From: Escherichia coli
GTDB lineage: Bacteria; Pseudomonadota; Gammaproteobacteria; Enterobacterales; Enterobacteriaceae
Length of the DNA stretch: 64,000 bases
Direction: 5' to 3' (one strand)
Assembly (NCBI RefSeq): GCF_016903815.1
Contig: NZ_CP069973.1
In this document: piece after piece, positions 42,760 through 48,177 of the stretch
Position numbering within the stretch: the stretch's first letter is position 1
Layout: each line of letters opens with the position of its first letter
Made by a program: the position numbers and the translations under genes
Notes under the pieces: model-generated
The model's database searches: none
Told to the model about the DNA's origin: nothing
Seen by the model: only the letters and a program-made list of their open reading frames with translations

Positions 42760-42834
42760 GTCCTCTTAGTTAAATGGATATAACGAGCCCCTCCTAAGGG
42801 CTAATTGCAGGTTCGATTCCTGCAGGGGACACCA
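42760..42834 (+). tRNA. argW: tRNA-Arg (anticodon CCU)
   Basis: 75 nt. Acceptor stem GTCCTCT pairs with AGGGGAC. The anticodon loop is ctCCTaa. T-arm is GCAGG-TTCGATT-CCTGC. The 3' end is an encoded ACCA. Confidence 0.95.
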
Positions 42835-42995
42835 TTTATCAGTTCGCTCCCATCCGTACCAGTCCGCAAAATCCCCTAAATATCAAGCCTTCCGTAGATT
42901 AACAGTTCGTCATGGTTCGCGTCAGATCGTTGACAGCCGCACTCCATGACGGGTAAAAAGTGGATAAAATAATTTTACCCACCGGATTTTTACCC

Positions 42996-44153
42996 ATGCT
43001 CACCGTTAAGCAGATTGAAGCAGCAAAGCCGAAAGAAAAACCATACCGCCTACTCGATGGTAATGGCCTGTACCTTTATGTCCCTGTGTCAGGGAAAAAG
43101 GTATGGCAGCTTCGCTACAAGATTGACGGTAAGGAGAAAATCCTGACTGTCGGAAAATATCCGCTTATGACTTTGCAGGAGGCAAGGGATAAGGCATGGA
43201 CTGCGAGGAAAGACATCTCGGTTGGCATCGATCCGGTAAAAGCGAAAAAGGCTTCGTCTAACAACAATTCCTTTAGTGTGATTTACAAGGAATGGTATGA
43301 GCACAAGAAGCAAGTCTGGTCAGTAGGCTATGCAACTGAACTTGCAAAAATGTTTGATGACGACATTTTACCTATCATCGGCGGCCTTGAAATTCAGGAT
43401 ATTGAGCCTATGCAACTGCTGGAAGTAATCCGCAGGTTTGAAGATCGCGGTGCAATGGAGCGAGCCAACAAAGCACGCAGAAGGTGCGGCGAGGTTTTCC
43501 GTTACGCTATTGTCACCGGCAGGGCTAAATATAACCCGGCACCTGACCTTGCTGACGCCATGAAGGGATACCGCAAGAAGAACTTCCCGTTTCTTCCAGC
43601 AGACCAGATCCCGGCATTCAACAAAGCACTTGCAACATTTTCAGGAAGTATCGTATCGCTCATTGCGACCAAAGTTTTACGCTACACAGCCCTAAGAACG
43701 AAAGAGCTTCGTTCCATGCAATGGAAGAACGTCGATTTTGAAAACAGGATTATCACCATCGACGCCAATGTGATGAAGGGACGCAAAATTCATGTGGTCC
43801 CGATGTCAGACCAGGTGGTTGAACTTCTCACTACGCTAAGCTCAATCACCAAACCAGTCTCAGAGTTTGTTTTTGCCGGGCGCAACGATAAGAAGAAGCC
43901 AATCTGCGAGAACGCGGTATTGCTTGTGATCAAACAAATCGGCTATGAAGGTCTGGAAAGCGGTCACGGATTCAGGCATGAATTCAGCACAATTATGAAC
44001 GAGCACGAATGGCCTGCTGACGCTATTGAAGTGCAGCTGGCACATGCCAACGGCGGATCTGTGCGCGGTATTTACAACCATGCTCAGTATCTCGATAAGC
44101 GCAGAGAAATGATGCAGTGGTGGGCGGACTGGCTTGATGAAAAGGTGGAGTGA
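42996..44153 (+). CDS. intS: prophage tyrosine integrase (IntS-like)
   Basis: The ATG at 42996 gives MLTVKQIEAAKPKEKPYRLLDGNGLYLYV (385 aa), essentially the K-12 CPS-53 IntS as recalled. Catalytic motifs RYTALRTKELRS, HGFRHEF and RGIYNHAQY are present. Confidence 0.93.
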   Translation: MLTVKQIEAAKPKEKPYRLLDGNGLYLYVPVSGKKVWQLRYKIDGKEKILTVGKYPLMTLQEARDKAWTARKDISVGIDPVKAKKASSNNNSFSVIYKEWYEHKKQVWSVGYATELAKMFDDDILPIIGGLEIQDIEPMQLLEVIRRFEDRGAMERANKARRRCGEVFRYAIVTGRAKYNPAPDLADAMKGYRKKNFPFLPADQIPAFNKALATFSGSIVSLIATKVLRYTALRTKELRSMQWKNVDFENRIITIDANVMKGRKIHVVPMSDQVVELLTTLSSITKPVSEFVFAGRNDKKKPICENAVLLVIKQIGYEGLESGHGFRHEFSTIMNEHEWPADAIEVQLAHANGGSVRGIYNHAQYLDKRREMMQWWADWLDEKVE

Positions 44154-44177
44154 ACCACCTTAACCACTATCGAAGAG

Positions 44178-44222
44178 CACAAAACCTTGCAATCAAGTGC
44201 AAAGCTTTGTGTGTTATTTTTT
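44178..44222 (+). terminator. putative intrinsic terminator of int
   Basis: Imperfect 14-bp stem cacaaaaccttgca/tgcaaagctttgtg (12/14 pairs) followed by a T6 run (44217-44222). Confidence 0.55.
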
Positions 44223-44269
44223 ATGGCTATATAAATTATATACTGCCAGTGCTATCTAACATTTAAATA

Positions 44270-44926
44270 TTATGAACTATAATAAGTCCTAATCTTTACA
44301 GATGAAAGCATAATCTTCCAAGCTTGATCGCTACCCAACCACTCATCGTTGGTTGGTTCATTATCACCAGATACTACATAAGTATCTGGCATATCAAAGT
44401 CTATATTGCAAAGGTCTTCTCCTTTGCGCTCCTTAAAAATAAGAAGATCTATTTTTGTTGTTGGGAATTTTTTATCCAAAACACTTCTCAGTTTATACAC
44501 AGCATCTCGTTCTGCATTCAATCTAACGAGTAAAACACGTTCCGACTCATTGATTTTCTCTATAAATCTTTTTCTTCTCGCCTTTATTTTTTTCATCATA
44601 TTAAACAAGCAGACTTCAATACCTTGTTTTTCATAGTCATCAATAAGAATATCGTGAATACTTCGAAATCCAGTCGCTGTATCTGTGATATCAATACAAT
44701 TTTTAAATCTGCCATTAATTTTTATATTTTCAGGCAAGAAAAGGTGGTCGCACCCCTTATTAATTATTTTTGTAACTTGAGGTAGTTTTTGAGAGGCAAA
44801 CCAATCAAATGGTCCACTAAATGTCCTCAACCCAAATCGCTTTAACCTTCCTGCTGGTTGACATTTTTTACCAAGGCTTGCTATAAAATCATACTCTCCA
44901 CAAGGAAGAAAAAGGCCTTTATTCAT
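44270..44926 (-). CDS. moron gene 1: cytoplasmic DUF1796-like (putative papain-fold) protein, function unknown
   Basis: The ATG at 44926 follows AAGGA and gives MNKGLFLPCGEYDFIASLGKKCQPAGRLKRFGLRTFSGPFDWF (218 aa). The SLGxxC...GLRxxSxPFDW pattern is what I recall for Pfam DUF1796. No signal peptide. About 33% G+C. Confidence 0.6.
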   Translation of the reverse strand: MNKGLFLPCGEYDFIASLGKKCQPAGRLKRFGLRTFSGPFDWFASQKLPQVTKIINKGCDHLFLPENIKINGRFKNCIDITDTATGFRSIHDILIDDYEKQGIEVCLFNMMKKIKARRKRFIEKINESERVLLVRLNAERDAVYKLRSVLDKKFPTTKIDLLIFKERKGEDLCNIDFDMPDTYVVSGDNEPTNDEWLGSDQAWKIMLSSVKIRTYYSS

Positions 44927-45043
44927 ATGATTTTCCTTACATTTTATGACGACAAAAATCATAACATTGCCTTATTAATCAGTCAAACAGTTAACAAATG
45001 CAAACAAACAAGTAAGCACATTGTTGATAATTTGTTTATTTTT

Positions 45044-45658
45044 ATGTTTTTGTTATCTATACCATTTTTTTCATTTGCTTCTGATACAAACAAAACGCCA
45101 CCATATCGCATGAGGGAGTCGATGTTTGAGTTATTAAAGGAGCAAAGGGATATTGTTATGCTTGGCGATAGCATAACCGCGCGAGGAGAGTGGAATGAGC
45201 TTCTTCCTAGTTTATCTGTAGCAAATAGGGGCATTGGGGGAGATGAAGTTAAATTTATGAAAAGAAGGATTGATTCTATATTTTTATTAAAGCCCAAATA
45301 TGTATTCATTATGGGCGGAACAAATGATTTCAGAAGAAAAAGAAGTGTTGATGATGTGGTTCGTGACTATAAGCATATAATAAAAAAACTACACAAACAC
45401 AGAATTAATGTATTCATTCAGTCCACCCTTTACGTGTCAAGAGAAAGCAGGTTAAATGACAACATAAAAATATTAAAATTAAACAATGCAATAAATAACT
45501 ATTGCTCTGTATCTAATTATTGTCGTTTCGTAGATCTTAACGTGCACATGGCAAAAGATAGAAAAATACTAGCTAAGTATAGCGATGATGGAGTCCATCT
45601 AAATGGTAATGGGTATTTAATGTGGGCGTCAATCATATACCCTTTAATTAAAAAATAA
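45044..45658 (+). CDS. moron gene 2: exported SGNH/GDSL-family hydrolase (esterase/acyl-transfer fold)
   Basis: All four SGNH blocks are present: I MLGDSITARGEW, II NRGIGGD, III GGTNDF, V DDGVHLNGNGY. The N-terminal hydrophobic segment (NL)FIFMFLLSIPFFSFA|SD is a signal peptide or signal anchor. The start is ambiguous: ATG at 45044, or ATG at 44927, which adds 39 aa. Confidence 0.75.
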   Translation: MFLLSIPFFSFASDTNKTPPYRMRESMFELLKEQRDIVMLGDSITARGEWNELLPSLSVANRGIGGDEVKFMKRRIDSIFLLKPKYVFIMGGTNDFRRKRSVDDVVRDYKHIIKKLHKHRINVFIQSTLYVSRESRLNDNIKILKLNNAINNYCSVSNYCRFVDLNVHMAKDRKILAKYSDDGVHLNGNGYLMWASIIYPLIKK

Positions 45659-45665
45659 GAATAGT

Positions 45666-45696
45666 AAAAAACCATCTCATTATGAGGTGGTTTTTT
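45666..45696. terminator. bidirectional intrinsic terminator between the SGNH gene and the tailspike gene
   Basis: aaaaaaccatctc / 5-nt loop / gaggtggtttttt: a 13-bp stem with one G-U pair, an A-run 5' and a T-run 3', between convergent genes. Confidence 0.8.
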
Positions 45697-45777
45697 ATAT
45701 AGAATAAAGCAATAGAGGTTTATTTTATTTGTTTATCATGGCTTAATGCACTAGTACTTTAATTGAAAAAACTATAT

Positions 45778-48177
45778 TTATTTTAGTATCCATCCGGTAT
45801 TTCCTGTTCCTGTTTTTTTTTGATACCAATCACCATTATAATCAATGTACATTGACCCCTGAGGTGCGGTCACAACACCCTCAGGTGAACCGGAGCCTCT
45901 ATAAATTCCAAAGAGAGTTGTACCTCTTACTTTCTCGTATGCAAACAACAAACCATCTGAAGCCCTTCTGATACGCAACGGTTCGTGCTCTGAGTCCGAT
46001 GCAAATGTAGTGGTGCCGTTTGAATCTGTTTCCCTGGAAAAACTTCCATCTGTTCTTGTTCCTTCAATGATCGAATTTGGGTAGTTTGGATCATCAGATG
46101 AATGTAACCTAATATAGGAACTATTTGATGCTGATACCCCCCTACCCCTTAAAATCAATCCCTTAAATGATGACGTAAATAGTGCCTGGATTGAGCCATA
46201 AACAGTGTTATCACTACCGTTTTGCTGATCGTATATTCTTAGTCTTGAGCTATTATCATACATAATAGCGTTGAAGTACTCACCAAGACGTTCGCTAAAT
46301 GCAACAATATTAAAAGCATTGCGCCATCTAAATGATATATTTCGCCCGCTTTCTCCGGCATCTACACCTGCATTACTTGAAGCATTGGTTATGCCAGAAT
46401 TAAGGTTCTGCTCATCGTTGTTACCAGTCGCTGGTCGTATAGAGTAAATTGTCTTTTTCTCAAGAGAATAGCTACTTCCCCATCCATAATCTGTATCAGG
46501 ACTCCAGTCTCCAGAATTTGCATCCTTGGTTGTTTCCACCCAATAAGAGCCATTTGATGGAGGAACACCAATTATTCCAGAAGTCTCAATAGATGATGCA
46601 GCCCATCTTCTTCCACGCCAGTTTACAATATTAGCTCCTGCCCTCCATGTTTCTATGCAGCTTATAATTATTTCTTCGCCACGAATAGTTAAACCTTCCG
46701 GCTCGAATCTGGCTGGATTCCCAAGAGTTGGATGGTTAAGCAACCCATCGCGCCCATATTGCGACCTTGCATCATCGATATCTAATTTTCTTAGTAAATT
46801 ACCTGTTAAATCATATGTAAAGATATGATGCTTTCCAAAAGCATTAGTGCCTCCCTTAAGTATATGTATATATCTTCCATCAGACGCAATACCTTGTACA
46901 GAGTAAGCGCCTTCAGAAGGTGAGTCGCTCATTTCCCAAACAAACATGGGGTTTGCTAATGTTTTATCTTCAAGTTTATCAATTGATATTTTATCGTATA
47001 TAAATACAGTTCGTTTAGCGGCATCACTCTTTGGTGTATTAACCATTATTAAAAGACGACCGTCAGAAGAAATGGCAATTCCTGCACGATTGTAATCTTG
47101 AAATGGGTGACCGCTACCAGTAATCCCCCATACATTATAACTTTTTACGTCAGACTGAGTTGTTCCTGCCCCTCGCCAAGTTATTTTACTAAACCCTTTG
47201 CCTGCAGACTCCCCATCTTCACCTGAATTGGTTACACTTGATGTATATAAATATACTTGACCATTCTCCACCATGGCAGAAAGATCAAATCCGTGCCCAA
47301 GGTTTAATTCTGGAGAATACGCAACATGGTTTACTACCCTTCCATCATCATAAAGATTAAACTCAACAATACGAACTCTTTCTTTATCCGACCAGGTTGG
47401 CCCAACAGGCCGTTGTGTGACAAATAGTTTTTCAATGCCATTAACACGGCAATATGCGATCCCCTGTAACGCATTTCTGGCATTAGGATAAATTTCTGTG
47501 TTTGTTTCTCCCTGAAAACCAAAAAAAGGTTCCATCATTTTTCTCTGCGCAAGTTTGTCAGTTTCAAGTAGACGAGAAACGGAAATAAGAGAGCCATTAT
47601 CTGCAACAATCCTCCCAATACCTCGAGCAGAAGATACATCAACTTCGAGAGTATTTACTGCAAAATCGCCATCAGGAACAAACATTCTATAGCCTGCGTT
47701 AGAGAATGCCTCAGTAGCGTCAGTTATTCCATCACTGATAGCCCCCCAACCGCGAACATCTTTGTCATCACGCCATCGTGCAATCTGCAATTCGGGATAT
47801 TTTTTAGCACCATCCGGGTCTTCTAACTGCTGCCGTAGCTGATCCGGGTCATACTTCAGCACATTAGGGAAATAGAACTGCTGAGTGCCATATGCATCAT
47901 ATACAGCCATAGAATGGCCTTGAACAGTTACGAATTTGGCAATCTGCCCGTTATATACCGGATATCCAGCAGCGTTAATGATGATTGGCTGCGAAACAGG
48001 AACATGAGAGCCGTCTTCGTTCTCTACATAAACCTGAATCTGGTTTTCTGGACTTACCGGGTCAGTGTCAATTTTTCCGATATAAATTTTGCCGTTGGCT
48101 ACTGCTTTAAAAGAACGCGCCATAGTGAAGAGTTGCGAAGGCATACTCACTACAACATTGGCTGTAATGTCTGTCAT
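45778..48177 (-). CDS. tailspike: P22 gp9-type N-terminal head-binding domain fused to an unrecognised receptor-binding/depolymerase part
   Basis: 799 aa. aa 1-113 ([40 protein letters not shown]...NVLKYDPDQ) match the P22/HK620/Sf6 head-binding domain as recalled. The remainder is AT-rich and not recognisable to me. Confidence 0.9.

What the first reader, a model, noticed from the sequence alone, without database searches (positions are those of the whole stretch)
44154..45777. Unusual two-gene cargo (DUF1796-like protein plus exported SGNH hydrolase) in the lysogenic-conversion slot between int and tailspike
SEEN:
- A 1.6-kb AT-rich block lies between the integrase stop and the tailspike stop. 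My hand counts of single 60-nt lines give about 32-33% G+C inside the block, against about 53% at the end of int.
- It holds two divergently transcribed genes, bracketed by a terminator after int (44178-44222) and a bidirectional terminator (45666-45696).
- Gene 1 (44270-44926, minus strand) has no export signal. It carries SLGKKCQ...RFGLRTFSGPFDWF, the pattern I recall for DUF1796, a putative papain-fold family.
- Gene 2 (45044-45658, plus strand) has all four SGNH catalytic blocks: GDS, GIGGD, GGTND and DGVH. It also has an N-terminal hydrophobic export segment.

KNOWN: In P22-like phages this slot carries surface-polysaccharide modification genes. P22 has gtrABC, Sf6 has oac, CUS-3 has neuO, and the K-12 CPS-53 remnant has yfdGHI next to an essentially identical intS at the same argW site.

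INFERENCE:
- This pair may be an undescribed seroconversion or superinfection-exclusion module.
- One possible mechanism is periplasmic de-O-acetylation, or another ester or acyl-transfer chemistry, on O-antigen or capsule. The cytoplasmic partner would have an unknown role.
- There is no Gtr flippase or glucosyltransferase, no membrane AT3 acyltransferase and no hexapeptide acetyltransferase. If the module modifies polysaccharide at all, its mechanism must differ from the known converters.
Basis: partly seen in the sequence, partly recalled or inferred. Interest (0 to 1): 0.8.

Follow-up and report, generated by a model that had tools for sequence, protein, structure and literature searches.

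The report
Phage-borne capsule-modification gene pair
A P22-like E. coli prophage carries, next to its tailspike, two genes (a secreted esterase-type enzyme and an uncharacterised cytoplasmic enzyme) that in Pseudomonas lie inside the gene cluster for the same kind of capsule, so the phage probably rewrites its host's K24 capsule, which is also its likely receptor.

Summary
A 1.6-kb block of 32% G+C lies between the integrase and the tailspike. It carries a divergent DUF1796 gene and an SGNH gene with all four catalytic blocks.

The target is probably not O-antigen.
- The same divergent pair sits inside group-2 (Kps) capsule loci of Pseudomonas, beside an exported beta-propeller gene.
- Those loci share orthologous biosynthesis genes with the E. 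coli K24 capsule locus (alpha-Kdo plus, by gene content, glycerol phosphate). The K24 locus lacks the pair.
- 29 of 33 complete E. coli genomes with the pair carry that rare K24-type locus (60 of 5426 genomes).
- The adjacent tailspike has the fold of the teichoic-acid-binding receptor protein of staphylococcal phage phi11. It is distantly homologous to the capsule-locus propeller.
- The tailspike occurs almost only in K24-type strains.

I read the pair as a capsule-locus accessory module captured by phages for lysogenic conversion of a teichoic-acid-like capsule.

The chemistry is inferred. The SGNH protein is exported and most resembles sialate O-acetylesterases. DUF1796 is cytoplasmic, has an invariant Cys/His, and is not papain-like in the model. 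O-acyl addition followed by periplasmic editing is my best guess.

RefSeq truncates the SGNH gene and so removes its signal peptide.

The parts
42760..42834 (+). tRNA-Arg (anticodon CCU, argW), the prophage attachment site
   Evidence: ARAGORN. It is annotated as tRNA-Arg upstream of intS in the identical region of NZ_CP032145.1.
42960..44153 (+). IntS-type tyrosine integrase, at the left end of the P22-like (Lederbergvirus) prophage
   Evidence: Pfam hits: Phage_integrase 2e-39, Phage_int_M, Arm-DNA-bind_3. Annotated intS or CPS-53-type integrase in public records.
44177..44212 (+). Hairpin followed by a T-run after int; a weak candidate terminator
   Evidence: Folds at -11.7 kcal/mol, z -1.3 against shuffles. 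Not called by the consensus scan.
44270..44926 (-). Gene 1: cytoplasmic DUF1796 protein, 218 aa, with invariant Cys22 and His91
   Evidence: PF08795 E 7e-16. No hydrophobic segment. AF2 model has pLDDT 93. C22, D41, W42, H91 and R135 are invariant in 45 diverse family members. Family members are fused to GT2, GT4, GT8, RgpF and pyruvyl-transferase domains.
44958..44986 (-). Sigma-70-like promoter for gene 1: TTGACT, 17 nt spacer, extended -10 TG-TATGAT
   Evidence: Consensus scan, 10 of 12 matches with TG. This is a consensus match only.
45044..45658 (+). Gene 2: exported SGNH/GDSL esterase or acyltransferase, 204 aa from ATG 45044. Alternative starts are TTG 45032 and ATG 44927. RefSeq starts at 45122.
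   Evidence: PF13472 2e-21, phrog_14008 1e-32. Catalytic Ser43, Asn94, Asp182 and His185 are invariant, and a Cys154/Cys161 pair is conserved in the DUF1796-linked subfamily. All homologues have signal peptides. Closest solved relatives are sialate O-acetylesterases 7pzg and 6njc, E 1e-24.
45664..45698 (.). Bidirectional intrinsic terminator between gene 2 and the tailspike gene
   Evidence: Folds at -18.9 kcal/mol on the plus strand and -13.0 on the minus strand, z -7.6 and -5.3, flanked by A6 and T6 runs.
45778..48177 (-). Tailspike, 799 aa: P22 head-binding domain plus a phi11-RBP-like five-bladed propeller receptor module. It is found almost only in K24-type capsule strains.

Best explanation
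**What it is.** The two genes are an accessory module of a teichoic-acid-like group-2 capsule pathway, and phages have captured it. The prophage uses the module to alter its host's K24-type capsule (alpha-Kdo and, by gene content, glycerol phosphate). That capsule is probably also the receptor of its own tailspike. This would be lysogenic conversion of a K antigen.

**Shown here.**
- The pair is a conserved divergent unit. It lies inside Pseudomonas Kps capsule loci whose biosynthesis genes are orthologous to E. coli K24 region 2.
- E. coli K24 loci lack the pair, and the prophage supplies it.
- In phages the pair always sits beside a receptor-binding protein of one family.
- That protein family is tied to K24-type hosts.
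- The SGNH protein is built for export and has an intact catalytic centre.
- DUF1796 has no export signal and has an invariant Cys and His.

**Inferred.**
- DUF1796 acts in the cytoplasm, where group-2 polymers are made. It adds an ester-linked acyl (most simply acetyl) group through a Cys-His acyl-enzyme.
- After export by KpsMT/KpsED, the periplasmic SGNH enzyme removes or repositions part of these groups.
- The modified capsule is bound or processed less well by the phage's own tailspike and by related ones. The lysogen is thereby protected from superinfection, and its K epitope changes.
For: **Pair conservation and context.**
- An adjacent, divergent SGNH/DUF1796 pair lies in the Kps capsule loci of P. 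taetrolens and P. guariconensis and in two metagenomic loci. Each sits next to an exported PF21311 propeller gene.
- The pair also lies beside receptor-binding proteins in four different phage backbones.
- Those four receptor-binding proteins belong to one family, 29-59% identical.

**Link to the K24 capsule.**
- P. taetrolens capsule-locus proteins compared with host E. coli kps region-2 proteins: TagD-like 72% identical, TagF-like 60%, GT29-like 51%, TPR 34%, propeller 26%. No pair is present in the E. coli locus.
- This region 2 matches the published K24 reference gene set.
- It is 96% identical to the region 2 of strain A0 34/86, serotype O83:K24:H31.
- K24 contains alpha-Kdo (PMC12887879).

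**Co-occurrence in complete E. coli genomes.**
- 29 of 33 genomes with the pair, and 39 of 43 with the tailspike receptor module, fall among the 60 of 5426 genomes that have this region 2.
- Fisher p is 2e-56 and 5e-79 respectively.

**SGNH protein.** The catalytic residues are invariant, all homologues have signal peptides, and a conserved Cys pair is present. Its closest solved relatives are sialate O-acetylesterases, which act on a sugar chemically close to Kdo.

**DUF1796.** Cys22 and His91 are invariant across the family. Family members are fused to glycosyltransferases and a polysaccharide pyruvyl transferase.

**Open question in the field.** The 2026 E. coli K-typing paper states that capsule-modifying genes outside kps remain unidentified (PMC13171606).
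Against: **Weak points in the chemistry.**
- No chemistry was tested. The acyl group, the modified position and the direction of each reaction are all guesses.
- The Pseudomonas loci already encode a hexapeptide-repeat acetyltransferase. There, DUF1796 need not be the acetyltransferase.

**Weak points in the association.**
- The co-occurrence statistics are inflated by clonality. Many carriers share one genomic arrangement, and three records are one strain.
- Four carriers are not among the K24-type genomes. The one inspected has a ribitol-phosphate-type region 2, though it also contains the propeller gene.
- In P. paraversuta the pair lies next to a polyketide synthase, with no capsule or phage genes within 10 kb.
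- Prophages with the same tailspike module but without the pair exist in LF82 and A0 34/86. Four of four other phages with related receptor proteins also lack it. The pair is therefore optional.

**Export.** The phage copy has a short signal peptide without a basic N-region, and its start codon is unresolved.
Confidence: 0.55

Rival explanations
1. O-antigen seroconversion. The exported SGNH enzyme de-O-acetylates or otherwise re-esterifies the host O-antigen in the periplasm, and the tailspike is O-antigen-specific as in P22, Sf6 and HK620.
For: - The genes occupy the classical int-tailspike conversion slot of P22-like phages.
- SGNH domains do act on O-antigen in OafA/OafB and in the phage G7C tailspike, as cited in PMC7448272 and PMC13123978.
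Against: - The pair itself lies in ABC-transporter (Kps) capsule loci, not O-antigen loci.
- Carriage follows one rare kps region 2.
- The tailspike is not a beta-helix O-antigen hydrolase. It is a phi11-type propeller protein homologous to a capsule-locus protein.
Confidence: 0.08
2. Esterase-only receptor editing. Both proteins are hydrolases. The periplasmic SGNH enzyme strips ester groups, or cleaves the lyso-phosphatidylglycerol anchor, from the exported capsule. DUF1796 does the same to precursors in the cytoplasm. The result is a thinned, shed or de-esterified capsule rather than an added modification.
For: - The closest characterised relatives of the SGNH protein are hydrolases: sialate O-acetylesterases at E 1e-24 and PAF acetylhydrolases.
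- The Pseudomonas loci carry a separate hexapeptide acetyltransferase that could supply the ester substrate.
- Capsule deacetylation by prophage SGNH domains is documented in Klebsiella (PMC13123978).
Against: - The E. coli K24 region 2 encodes no acetyltransferase, so there is no evident ester substrate in the phage's actual host.
- An anchor-cleaving activity would not explain the restriction of the pair to one capsule type and one receptor-protein family.
Confidence: 0.17
3. A moron unrelated to the receptor. The SGNH protein is a secreted sialate or carbohydrate O-acetylesterase that helps the lysogen feed on host glycans, like the prophage-encoded NanS-p esterases of EHEC. DUF1796 has a separate role.
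For: - The best solved matches are gut Bacteroidetes sialate O-acetylesterases.
- Many carriers are human or animal gut isolates.
- The NanS-p precedent rests on my own knowledge.
Against: - The two genes are strictly paired across Pseudomonas, E. coli and unrelated phages.
- The pair sits inside capsule biosynthesis loci of Pseudomonas.
- In phages it always adjoins one receptor-binding-protein family.
- SGNH and tailspike variants change together while DUF1796 stays 94.5% identical.
Confidence: 0.07
4. A lytic-cycle helper rather than a conversion module. The pair is expressed during phage growth. It modifies capsule on the dying cell and its debris so that progeny virions are not trapped, acting as a soluble receptor-destroying function.
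For: - In phage contigs L015/L016 the pair lies between the receptor-binding protein and the lysis genes.
- Both genes have their own promoter-like and terminator elements, so their timing is independent of the late operon.
Against: - In the window the pair lies in the int-proximal moron position, insulated by terminators. It is AT-rich like typical lysogeny-expressed morons.
- In Pseudomonas the pair is a resident part of capsule loci.
- This rival is compatible with the same chemistry and is not exclusive of conversion.
Confidence: 0.08

Closest known systems
NeuO of prophage CUS-3 (E. coli K1 capsule O-acetyltransferase)
   Same: A P22-like prophage at argW carries a capsule-modifying gene in the integrase-tailspike region, next to a capsule-specific tailspike. 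It modifies a group-2 capsule made of an ulosonic acid (sialic acid there, Kdo here). These CUS-3 details are from my own knowledge.
   Different: NeuO is a single cytoplasmic hexapeptide-repeat acetyltransferase with phase variation. Here there is no hexapeptide protein. Instead there is a DUF1796 protein plus an exported SGNH enzyme. The tailspike is a phi11-type propeller, not an endosialidase.
AT3-SGNH O-antigen acetyltransferases (OafA, OafB; phage Sf6 Oac) and PatA/PatB, OatA peptidoglycan O-acetylation
   Different: Those systems need a membrane AT3 or MBOAT protein to carry the acyl group across the membrane. None is present here. Gene 1 has no transmembrane segment. The substrate polymer is made in the cytoplasm, so a soluble partner can act before export.
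Sialate O-acetylesterases EstA of Bacteroides/Phocaeicola (PDB 6njc, 7pzg), the NeuA esterase domain and PAF-AH Ib-type SGNH enzymes
   Same: These are the closest solved relatives by sequence: E 1e-24 across the whole mature domain, with the same four blocks. They act on O-acetyl esters of a nine-carbon ulosonic acid, which is chemically close to Kdo.
   Different: They are catabolic or precursor-editing enzymes that are not paired with DUF1796. The substrate of the phage enzyme is unknown.
SGNH esterase domains in phage receptor-binding proteins (G7C gp63.1; Klebsiella prophage tail fibres)
   Same: These are phage SGNH enzymes aimed at the host's surface polysaccharide. The Klebsiella study also notes separate 'cysteine protease' and SGNH-fold proteins encoded next to receptor-binding proteins (PMC13123978).
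   Different: Those esterases are virion parts used for entry. Here the SGNH protein is free-standing with a signal peptide. It is made by the lysogen and paired with a cytoplasmic protein.
Receptor-binding protein Gp45 of Staphylococcus phage phi11 (PDB 5efv; Pfam PF21311)
   Different: The host is Gram-negative and the N-terminal adaptor is P22-type. The homologous stand-alone propellers are encoded in the host's own capsule loci.

Membership tests
DUF1796 (Pfam PF08795) | Match to the family HMM above the gathering score | tested here: met
   58.9 bits against a cut-off of 23, E 7e-16, residues 15-149. RefSeq also names it DUF1796.
DUF1796 (Pfam PF08795) | Conserved Cys and His proposed as catalytic residues | tested here: met
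   C22 and H91 are invariant in 14 close homologues and in 45 diverse members. Catalysis itself was not tested.
Papain-like cysteine peptidases (the Pfam description of DUF1796) | Papain-like alpha+beta fold | tested here: not met
   [not shown]
SGNH/GDSL hydrolases (PF13472, PF00657) | HMM match plus the four blocks: Ser (GDS), Gly (block II), Asn (GxND) and Asp-x-x-His | tested here: met
   E 2e-21 and 3e-11. S43, G63, N94, D182 and H185 are invariant in the alignment.
Exported (periplasmic) SGNH enzymes | Cleavable N-terminal signal peptide | tested here: inconclusive
   All homologues show n-h-c signal peptides. The window copy has a hydrophobic stretch ending in SFA|SD, but it has no basic residue when read from ATG 45044, and the start codon is unresolved. 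No SignalP tool was available.
Sialate O-acetylesterase (EstA-type) | Hydrolysis of 9-O-acetyl sialic acid | not testable with these tools
   Only sequence similarity is available: E 1e-24 to 6njc and 7pzg.
Known P22-like conversion modules (GtrABC; AT3 Oac/OafA; hexapeptide NeuO) | Position between the integrase and the tailspike | tested here: met
   Gene order is int, DUF1796, SGNH, tailspike.
Known P22-like conversion modules (GtrABC; AT3 Oac/OafA; hexapeptide NeuO) | A Gtr flippase/glucosyltransferase, an AT3 membrane acyltransferase or a hexapeptide acetyltransferase | tested here: not met
   Pfam and NCBIfam give only DUF1796 and SGNH. No other ORF with support lies in 44154-45777.
Known P22-like conversion modules (GtrABC; AT3 Oac/OafA; hexapeptide NeuO) | Changes the receptor polysaccharide and blocks adsorption of the phage itself | not testable with these tools
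   This needs capsule chemistry and adsorption assays.
Accessory genes of group-2 (Kps, ABC-transporter) capsule loci | Homologues located inside kps-type loci between the conserved export and linker genes | tested here: met
   In L007-L013 the pair lies between kpsF and the region-2-type genes, with KpsC/S, KpsD/E and TagD/TagF-like genes around it. One exception is P. paraversuta.
Anti-phage defence systems (PADLOC) | Match to a defence-system protein model | tested here: not met
   No hit for either protein.

The most novel reading that the evidence does not exclude
DUF1796 would be a previously unrecognised class of cytoplasmic polysaccharide O-acyltransferase with a Cys-His centre. Together with a dedicated exported SGNH editing enzyme, it would form a mobile two-gene cassette. 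That cassette moves between capsule loci and phages and converts the serotype of teichoic-acid-like group-2 capsules. [quoted passage not shown] The host capsule loci would also encode a periplasmic homologue of the phage's receptor-binding propeller.
Probability: 0.3. Interest if true: 0.8.

Novelty: new variant of a known kind. Interest (0 to 1): 0.65.

Why it matters
- **Capsule typing.** Capsule type governs virulence, vaccine design and phage therapy in extraintestinal E. coli. The carriers here include carbapenemase-associated and other clinical isolates. [quoted passage not shown] This pair is a specific, testable candidate of that kind for K24-type capsules.
- **DUF1796.** The result gives DUF1796 its first functional context. 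The family has about 2000 representative clusters and almost no literature.
- **Annotation.** It corrects a public gene model that hides the export signal of the SGNH protein.
- **Gene flow.** It points to gene flow between capsule loci and phage receptor modules: a propeller, an SGNH gene and a DUF1796 gene in the same order. It also links a Gram-negative tailspike to the teichoic-acid-binding proteins of staphylococcal phages.

Tried and rejected
- **Literature.** Searches for DUF1796 and PF08795 found one irrelevant paper and none, respectively. A search for phage vB_EcoP-683R2 found only a passing mention.
- **DUF1796 against solved structures.** The sequence profile gave no PDB hit. Foldseek against the PDB gave nothing significant.
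- **AlphaFold database.** The afdb50 library was not available, so the DUF1796 model could not be compared with annotated AlphaFold models.
- **DUF1796 as a divergent SGNH.** A profile-profile comparison of DUF1796 with the SGNH family found no relationship, probability 0.2%. I therefore dropped the idea that DUF1796 is a recognisable SGNH by sequence.
- **Other libraries.** NCBIfam and PHROGs gave nothing for gene 1. PADLOC gave nothing for either gene.
- **Scan of 185,579 species genomes.** The pattern-based scan found only one further locus, in P. paraversuta. It detects close relatives only, so it says little about the wider family.
- **C-X5-R phosphatase-type loop at Cys22.** I considered and rejected this. 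The spacing is C-X4-R, and Arg27 is not conserved outside the subfamily.
- **K18/K22 acetylation puzzle.** I considered linking the pair to it and rejected that. The ribitol-phosphate locus of carrier WCHEC4533 does not have the 1107-aa polymerase of the K18_K22 reference locus.
- **Terminator scan.** The consensus scan missed both hairpins. I checked them by folding instead.
Full report
**1. The observation**

The block 44154-45777 is 32.4% G+C. The integrase is 47.6%, the tailspike 41.3% and the window 49.6%.

Gene 1:
- It runs 44270-44926 on the minus strand and encodes 218 aa.
- It matches Pfam DUF1796 well above threshold, E 7e-16.
- It has a good ribosome-binding site (read) and no hydrophobic segment.

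Gene 2:
- It runs 45044-45658 on the plus strand.
- It matches the SGNH/GDSL families, E 2e-21.
- All four catalytic blocks are present and are invariant among homologues.

Regulatory elements:
- The hairpin at 45664-45698 is a convincing bidirectional terminator, z -7.6 and -5.3.
- The hairpin after int is weak, z -1.3.

Distribution:
- The same 1.6 kb is 100% identical in Escherichia phage vB_EcoP-683R2, a Lederbergvirus.
- It is present in 31 of 5426 complete E. coli genomes, always at argW next to intS.

**2. A gene-model correction**

RefSeq and the phage record start gene 2 at ATG 45122, which gives 178 aa and no signal peptide. Two observations argue for a longer gene:
- Every homologue has a classical signal peptide.
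- All conserve the TPPYRMRxSLFExL motif, which lies upstream of the RefSeq start.

The hydrophobic stretch FLLSIPFFSFA followed by SD aligns with those signal peptides. A Cys154/Cys161 pair is conserved only in the DUF1796-linked subfamily, which fits a periplasmic disulfide. The exact start remains open: ATG 45044, TTG 45032 or ATG 44927.

**3. The pair is a conserved unit that comes from capsule loci**

Close homologues of both proteins sit adjacent and divergent in four kinds of place.

(a) Another E. coli P22-like prophage type. Its SGNH protein is 53% identical and its DUF1796 protein 94% identical.

(b) ABC-transporter (Kps, group-2-type) capsule loci.
- These are in Pseudomonas taetrolens, P. 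guariconensis and two metagenomic contigs.
- The loci hold KpsC/S, KpsD/E, KpsF, KdsA and KdsB-type genes. They also hold a TagD-like cytidylyltransferase, a TagF-like glycerophosphotransferase, a GT29-like transferase, a TPR protein and a hexapeptide acetyltransferase.
- Directly beside the SGNH gene lies a 331-348-aa protein with a signal peptide and a PF21311 'phage receptor-binding propeller' domain.

(c) Two other phage types, each time next to the receptor-binding protein.

(d) One exception: P. paraversuta, where the pair lies next to a polyketide synthase.

**4. The host's own capsule locus is the counterpart that lacks the pair**

In strain 15.TR.026_OXA, which carries the identical prophage, kps region 2 at the pheV island encodes five proteins:
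- a 'phage baseplate protein' (PF21311, E 2e-15);
- a TPR protein;
- a TagF-like enzyme;
- a GT29-like enzyme;
- a TagD-like enzyme.

Identity of the P. taetrolens capsule-locus proteins to these host proteins:

| Protein | Identity |
|---|---|
| TagD-like | 72% |
| TagF-like | 60% |
| GT29-like | 51% |
| TPR | 34% |
| Propeller | 26% |

There is no SGNH, DUF1796 or acetyltransferase gene in the E. coli locus.

This gene set matches the K24 reference locus of the 2026 K-typing catalogue. It is 96% identical to the region 2 of strain A0 34/86, serotype O83:K24:H31. K24 contains alpha-pyranosidic Kdo (PMC12887879). The TagD/TagF-like genes imply glycerol phosphate. I recall the K24 structure paper (Lenter, Jann & Jann 1990, listed) as describing a Kdo-glycerol-phosphate polymer. 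That recollection is from memory.

**5. Co-occurrence**

| Feature | Complete genomes with it | Of these, in the K24-type set of 60 | Fisher p |
|---|---|---|---|
| K24-type region 2 | 60 of 5426 | - | - |
| SGNH/DUF1796 pair | 33 | 29 | 2e-56 |
| Tailspike receptor module | 43 | 39 | 5e-79 |

Clonality inflates these figures.

The four exceptions are not among the K24-type genomes. The one I inspected has a ribitol-phosphate-type region 2, which again contains a propeller gene 80% identical to the K24 one.

Strains LF82 and A0 34/86 carry the tailspike module without the pair. Four other phages with related receptor proteins also lack it. The pair is therefore optional cargo. When the pair is in a phage, however, it always adjoins a receptor-binding protein of this one family.

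**6. The tailspike**

- Beyond the P22 head-binding domain, sequence search finds no solved relative.
- The AlphaFold model has pLDDT 85.
- Residues 288-498 are distantly but reproducibly homologous to the capsule-locus propellers, E about 1e-8 in many pairs.
- The gene order receptor-protein/propeller, then SGNH, then DUF1796 is shared by the P. taetrolens locus and the prophage, with the same relative orientations.

**7. What the two enzymes may do**

The SGNH protein:
- Its closest solved relatives are the sialate O-acetylesterases of Bacteroides and Phocaeicola, E 1e-24. These enzymes act on a sugar closely related to Kdo.

DUF1796:
- It has no characterised relative.
- Cys22, Asp41, Trp42, His91 and Arg135 are invariant across 45 diverse members.
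- Family members are fused to GT2, GT4, GT8, RgpF and polysaccharide pyruvyl-transferase domains. This places the family in cytoplasmic polysaccharide assembly.

Group-2 polymers are built in the cytoplasm (established knowledge of the Kps pathway). A soluble enzyme can therefore modify them before export, and no AT3 or MBOAT membrane carrier is needed.

My best-supported mechanism has three steps:
1. DUF1796 adds an ester-linked acyl group to the nascent polymer.
2. The exported SGNH enzyme trims or repositions that group.
3. The altered capsule is a poorer receptor for the phage's own tailspike.

All three steps are inference.

The two E. coli variants of the cassette keep DUF1796 at 94.5% DNA identity. 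Their SGNH proteins (53% identical) and tailspike receptor modules (54% identical) have diverged together. This fits the view that the two exported proteins see the same polymer feature.

**8. Comparison with what is known**

- In concept, this is lysogenic conversion of a capsule. The closest parallel is NeuO on prophage CUS-3.
- In components, it differs from every described converter. It has no Gtr proteins, no AT3 protein and no hexapeptide acetyltransferase.
- A 2026 study of Klebsiella prophages noted 'cysteine protease' and SGNH-fold proteins encoded next to receptor-binding proteins, without explaining them.
- The E. coli K-typing paper lists unidentified modifying genes outside kps as a gap.

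I therefore rate this a new variant of a known kind. Interest is moderate to high, because the hypothesis is specific and cheap to test.

**9. Verdict**

The target should be re-assigned from O-antigen to a K24-type capsule, and the papain-fold label for DUF1796 should be dropped.
- Confidence that the pair is a capsule-directed conversion module is about 0.55.
- Confidence in the specific order of acyl addition followed by editing is about 0.3.

Noticed in passing
window 45044-45658 (RefSeq start at 45122): RefSeq (WP_060579112, 178 aa) and the phage record ON470594 start the SGNH gene at an internal ATG. This cuts off the signal peptide and a motif conserved in all homologues. The phage record also extends gene 1 to 230 aa, whereas homologues begin at the 218-aa start.
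   Followed up: yes
[not shown]
   Followed up: yes
L018 21625-22593 (NZ_CP032145.1 kps region 2); L020 6463-7422; L007 7847-8842: E. coli K24-type and ribitol-phosphate-type capsule loci, and the Pseudomonas capsule loci, each encode an exported PF21311 propeller protein, annotated 'phage baseplate protein'. It is homologous to the phage tailspike. Its role in capsule biogenesis is unknown.
   Followed up: partly
L006 9300-10760 versus window 44270-45658: The two E. coli versions of the cassette are mosaics. The DUF1796 genes are 94.5% identical in DNA. The SGNH genes are too diverged for megablast (53% protein identity), and the adjacent tailspikes are 54% identical. This implies a recombination breakpoint in the divergent promoter region.
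   Followed up: partly
L020 1971-7422 (NZ_CP028589.2, strain WCHEC4533): A strain with the same genomic arrangement and the same prophage has a different kps region 2. It encodes a TagF-like protein, a CDP-ribitol-synthase-like protein, a hypothetical protein and a propeller. This suggests a capsule switch after lysogeny, or a broader polyol-phosphate specificity. The locus does not match the K18_K22 reference gene sizes.
   Followed up: partly
L023 9183-10711 (Pseudomonas paraversuta): Here the SGNH/DUF1796 pair stands alone between GMC-oxidoreductase and beta-lactamase-like genes and a 2505-aa polyketide synthase. No capsule or phage genes lie within 10 kb.
   Followed up: partly
L003-L006 10937-11149; L015 4813-5037; L030 7612-7824: A small 70-74-aa ORF directly follows the receptor-binding protein gene in several related phages. 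It is absent between the tailspike and the SGNH gene in the window. Its function is unknown.
   Followed up: no
P0155, P0164, P0181, P0225, P0258: DUF1796 domains occur fused to GT2, GT4, GT8, RgpF, polysaccharide pyruvyl-transferase and DMFA2_C domains in large multidomain proteins.
   Followed up: partly
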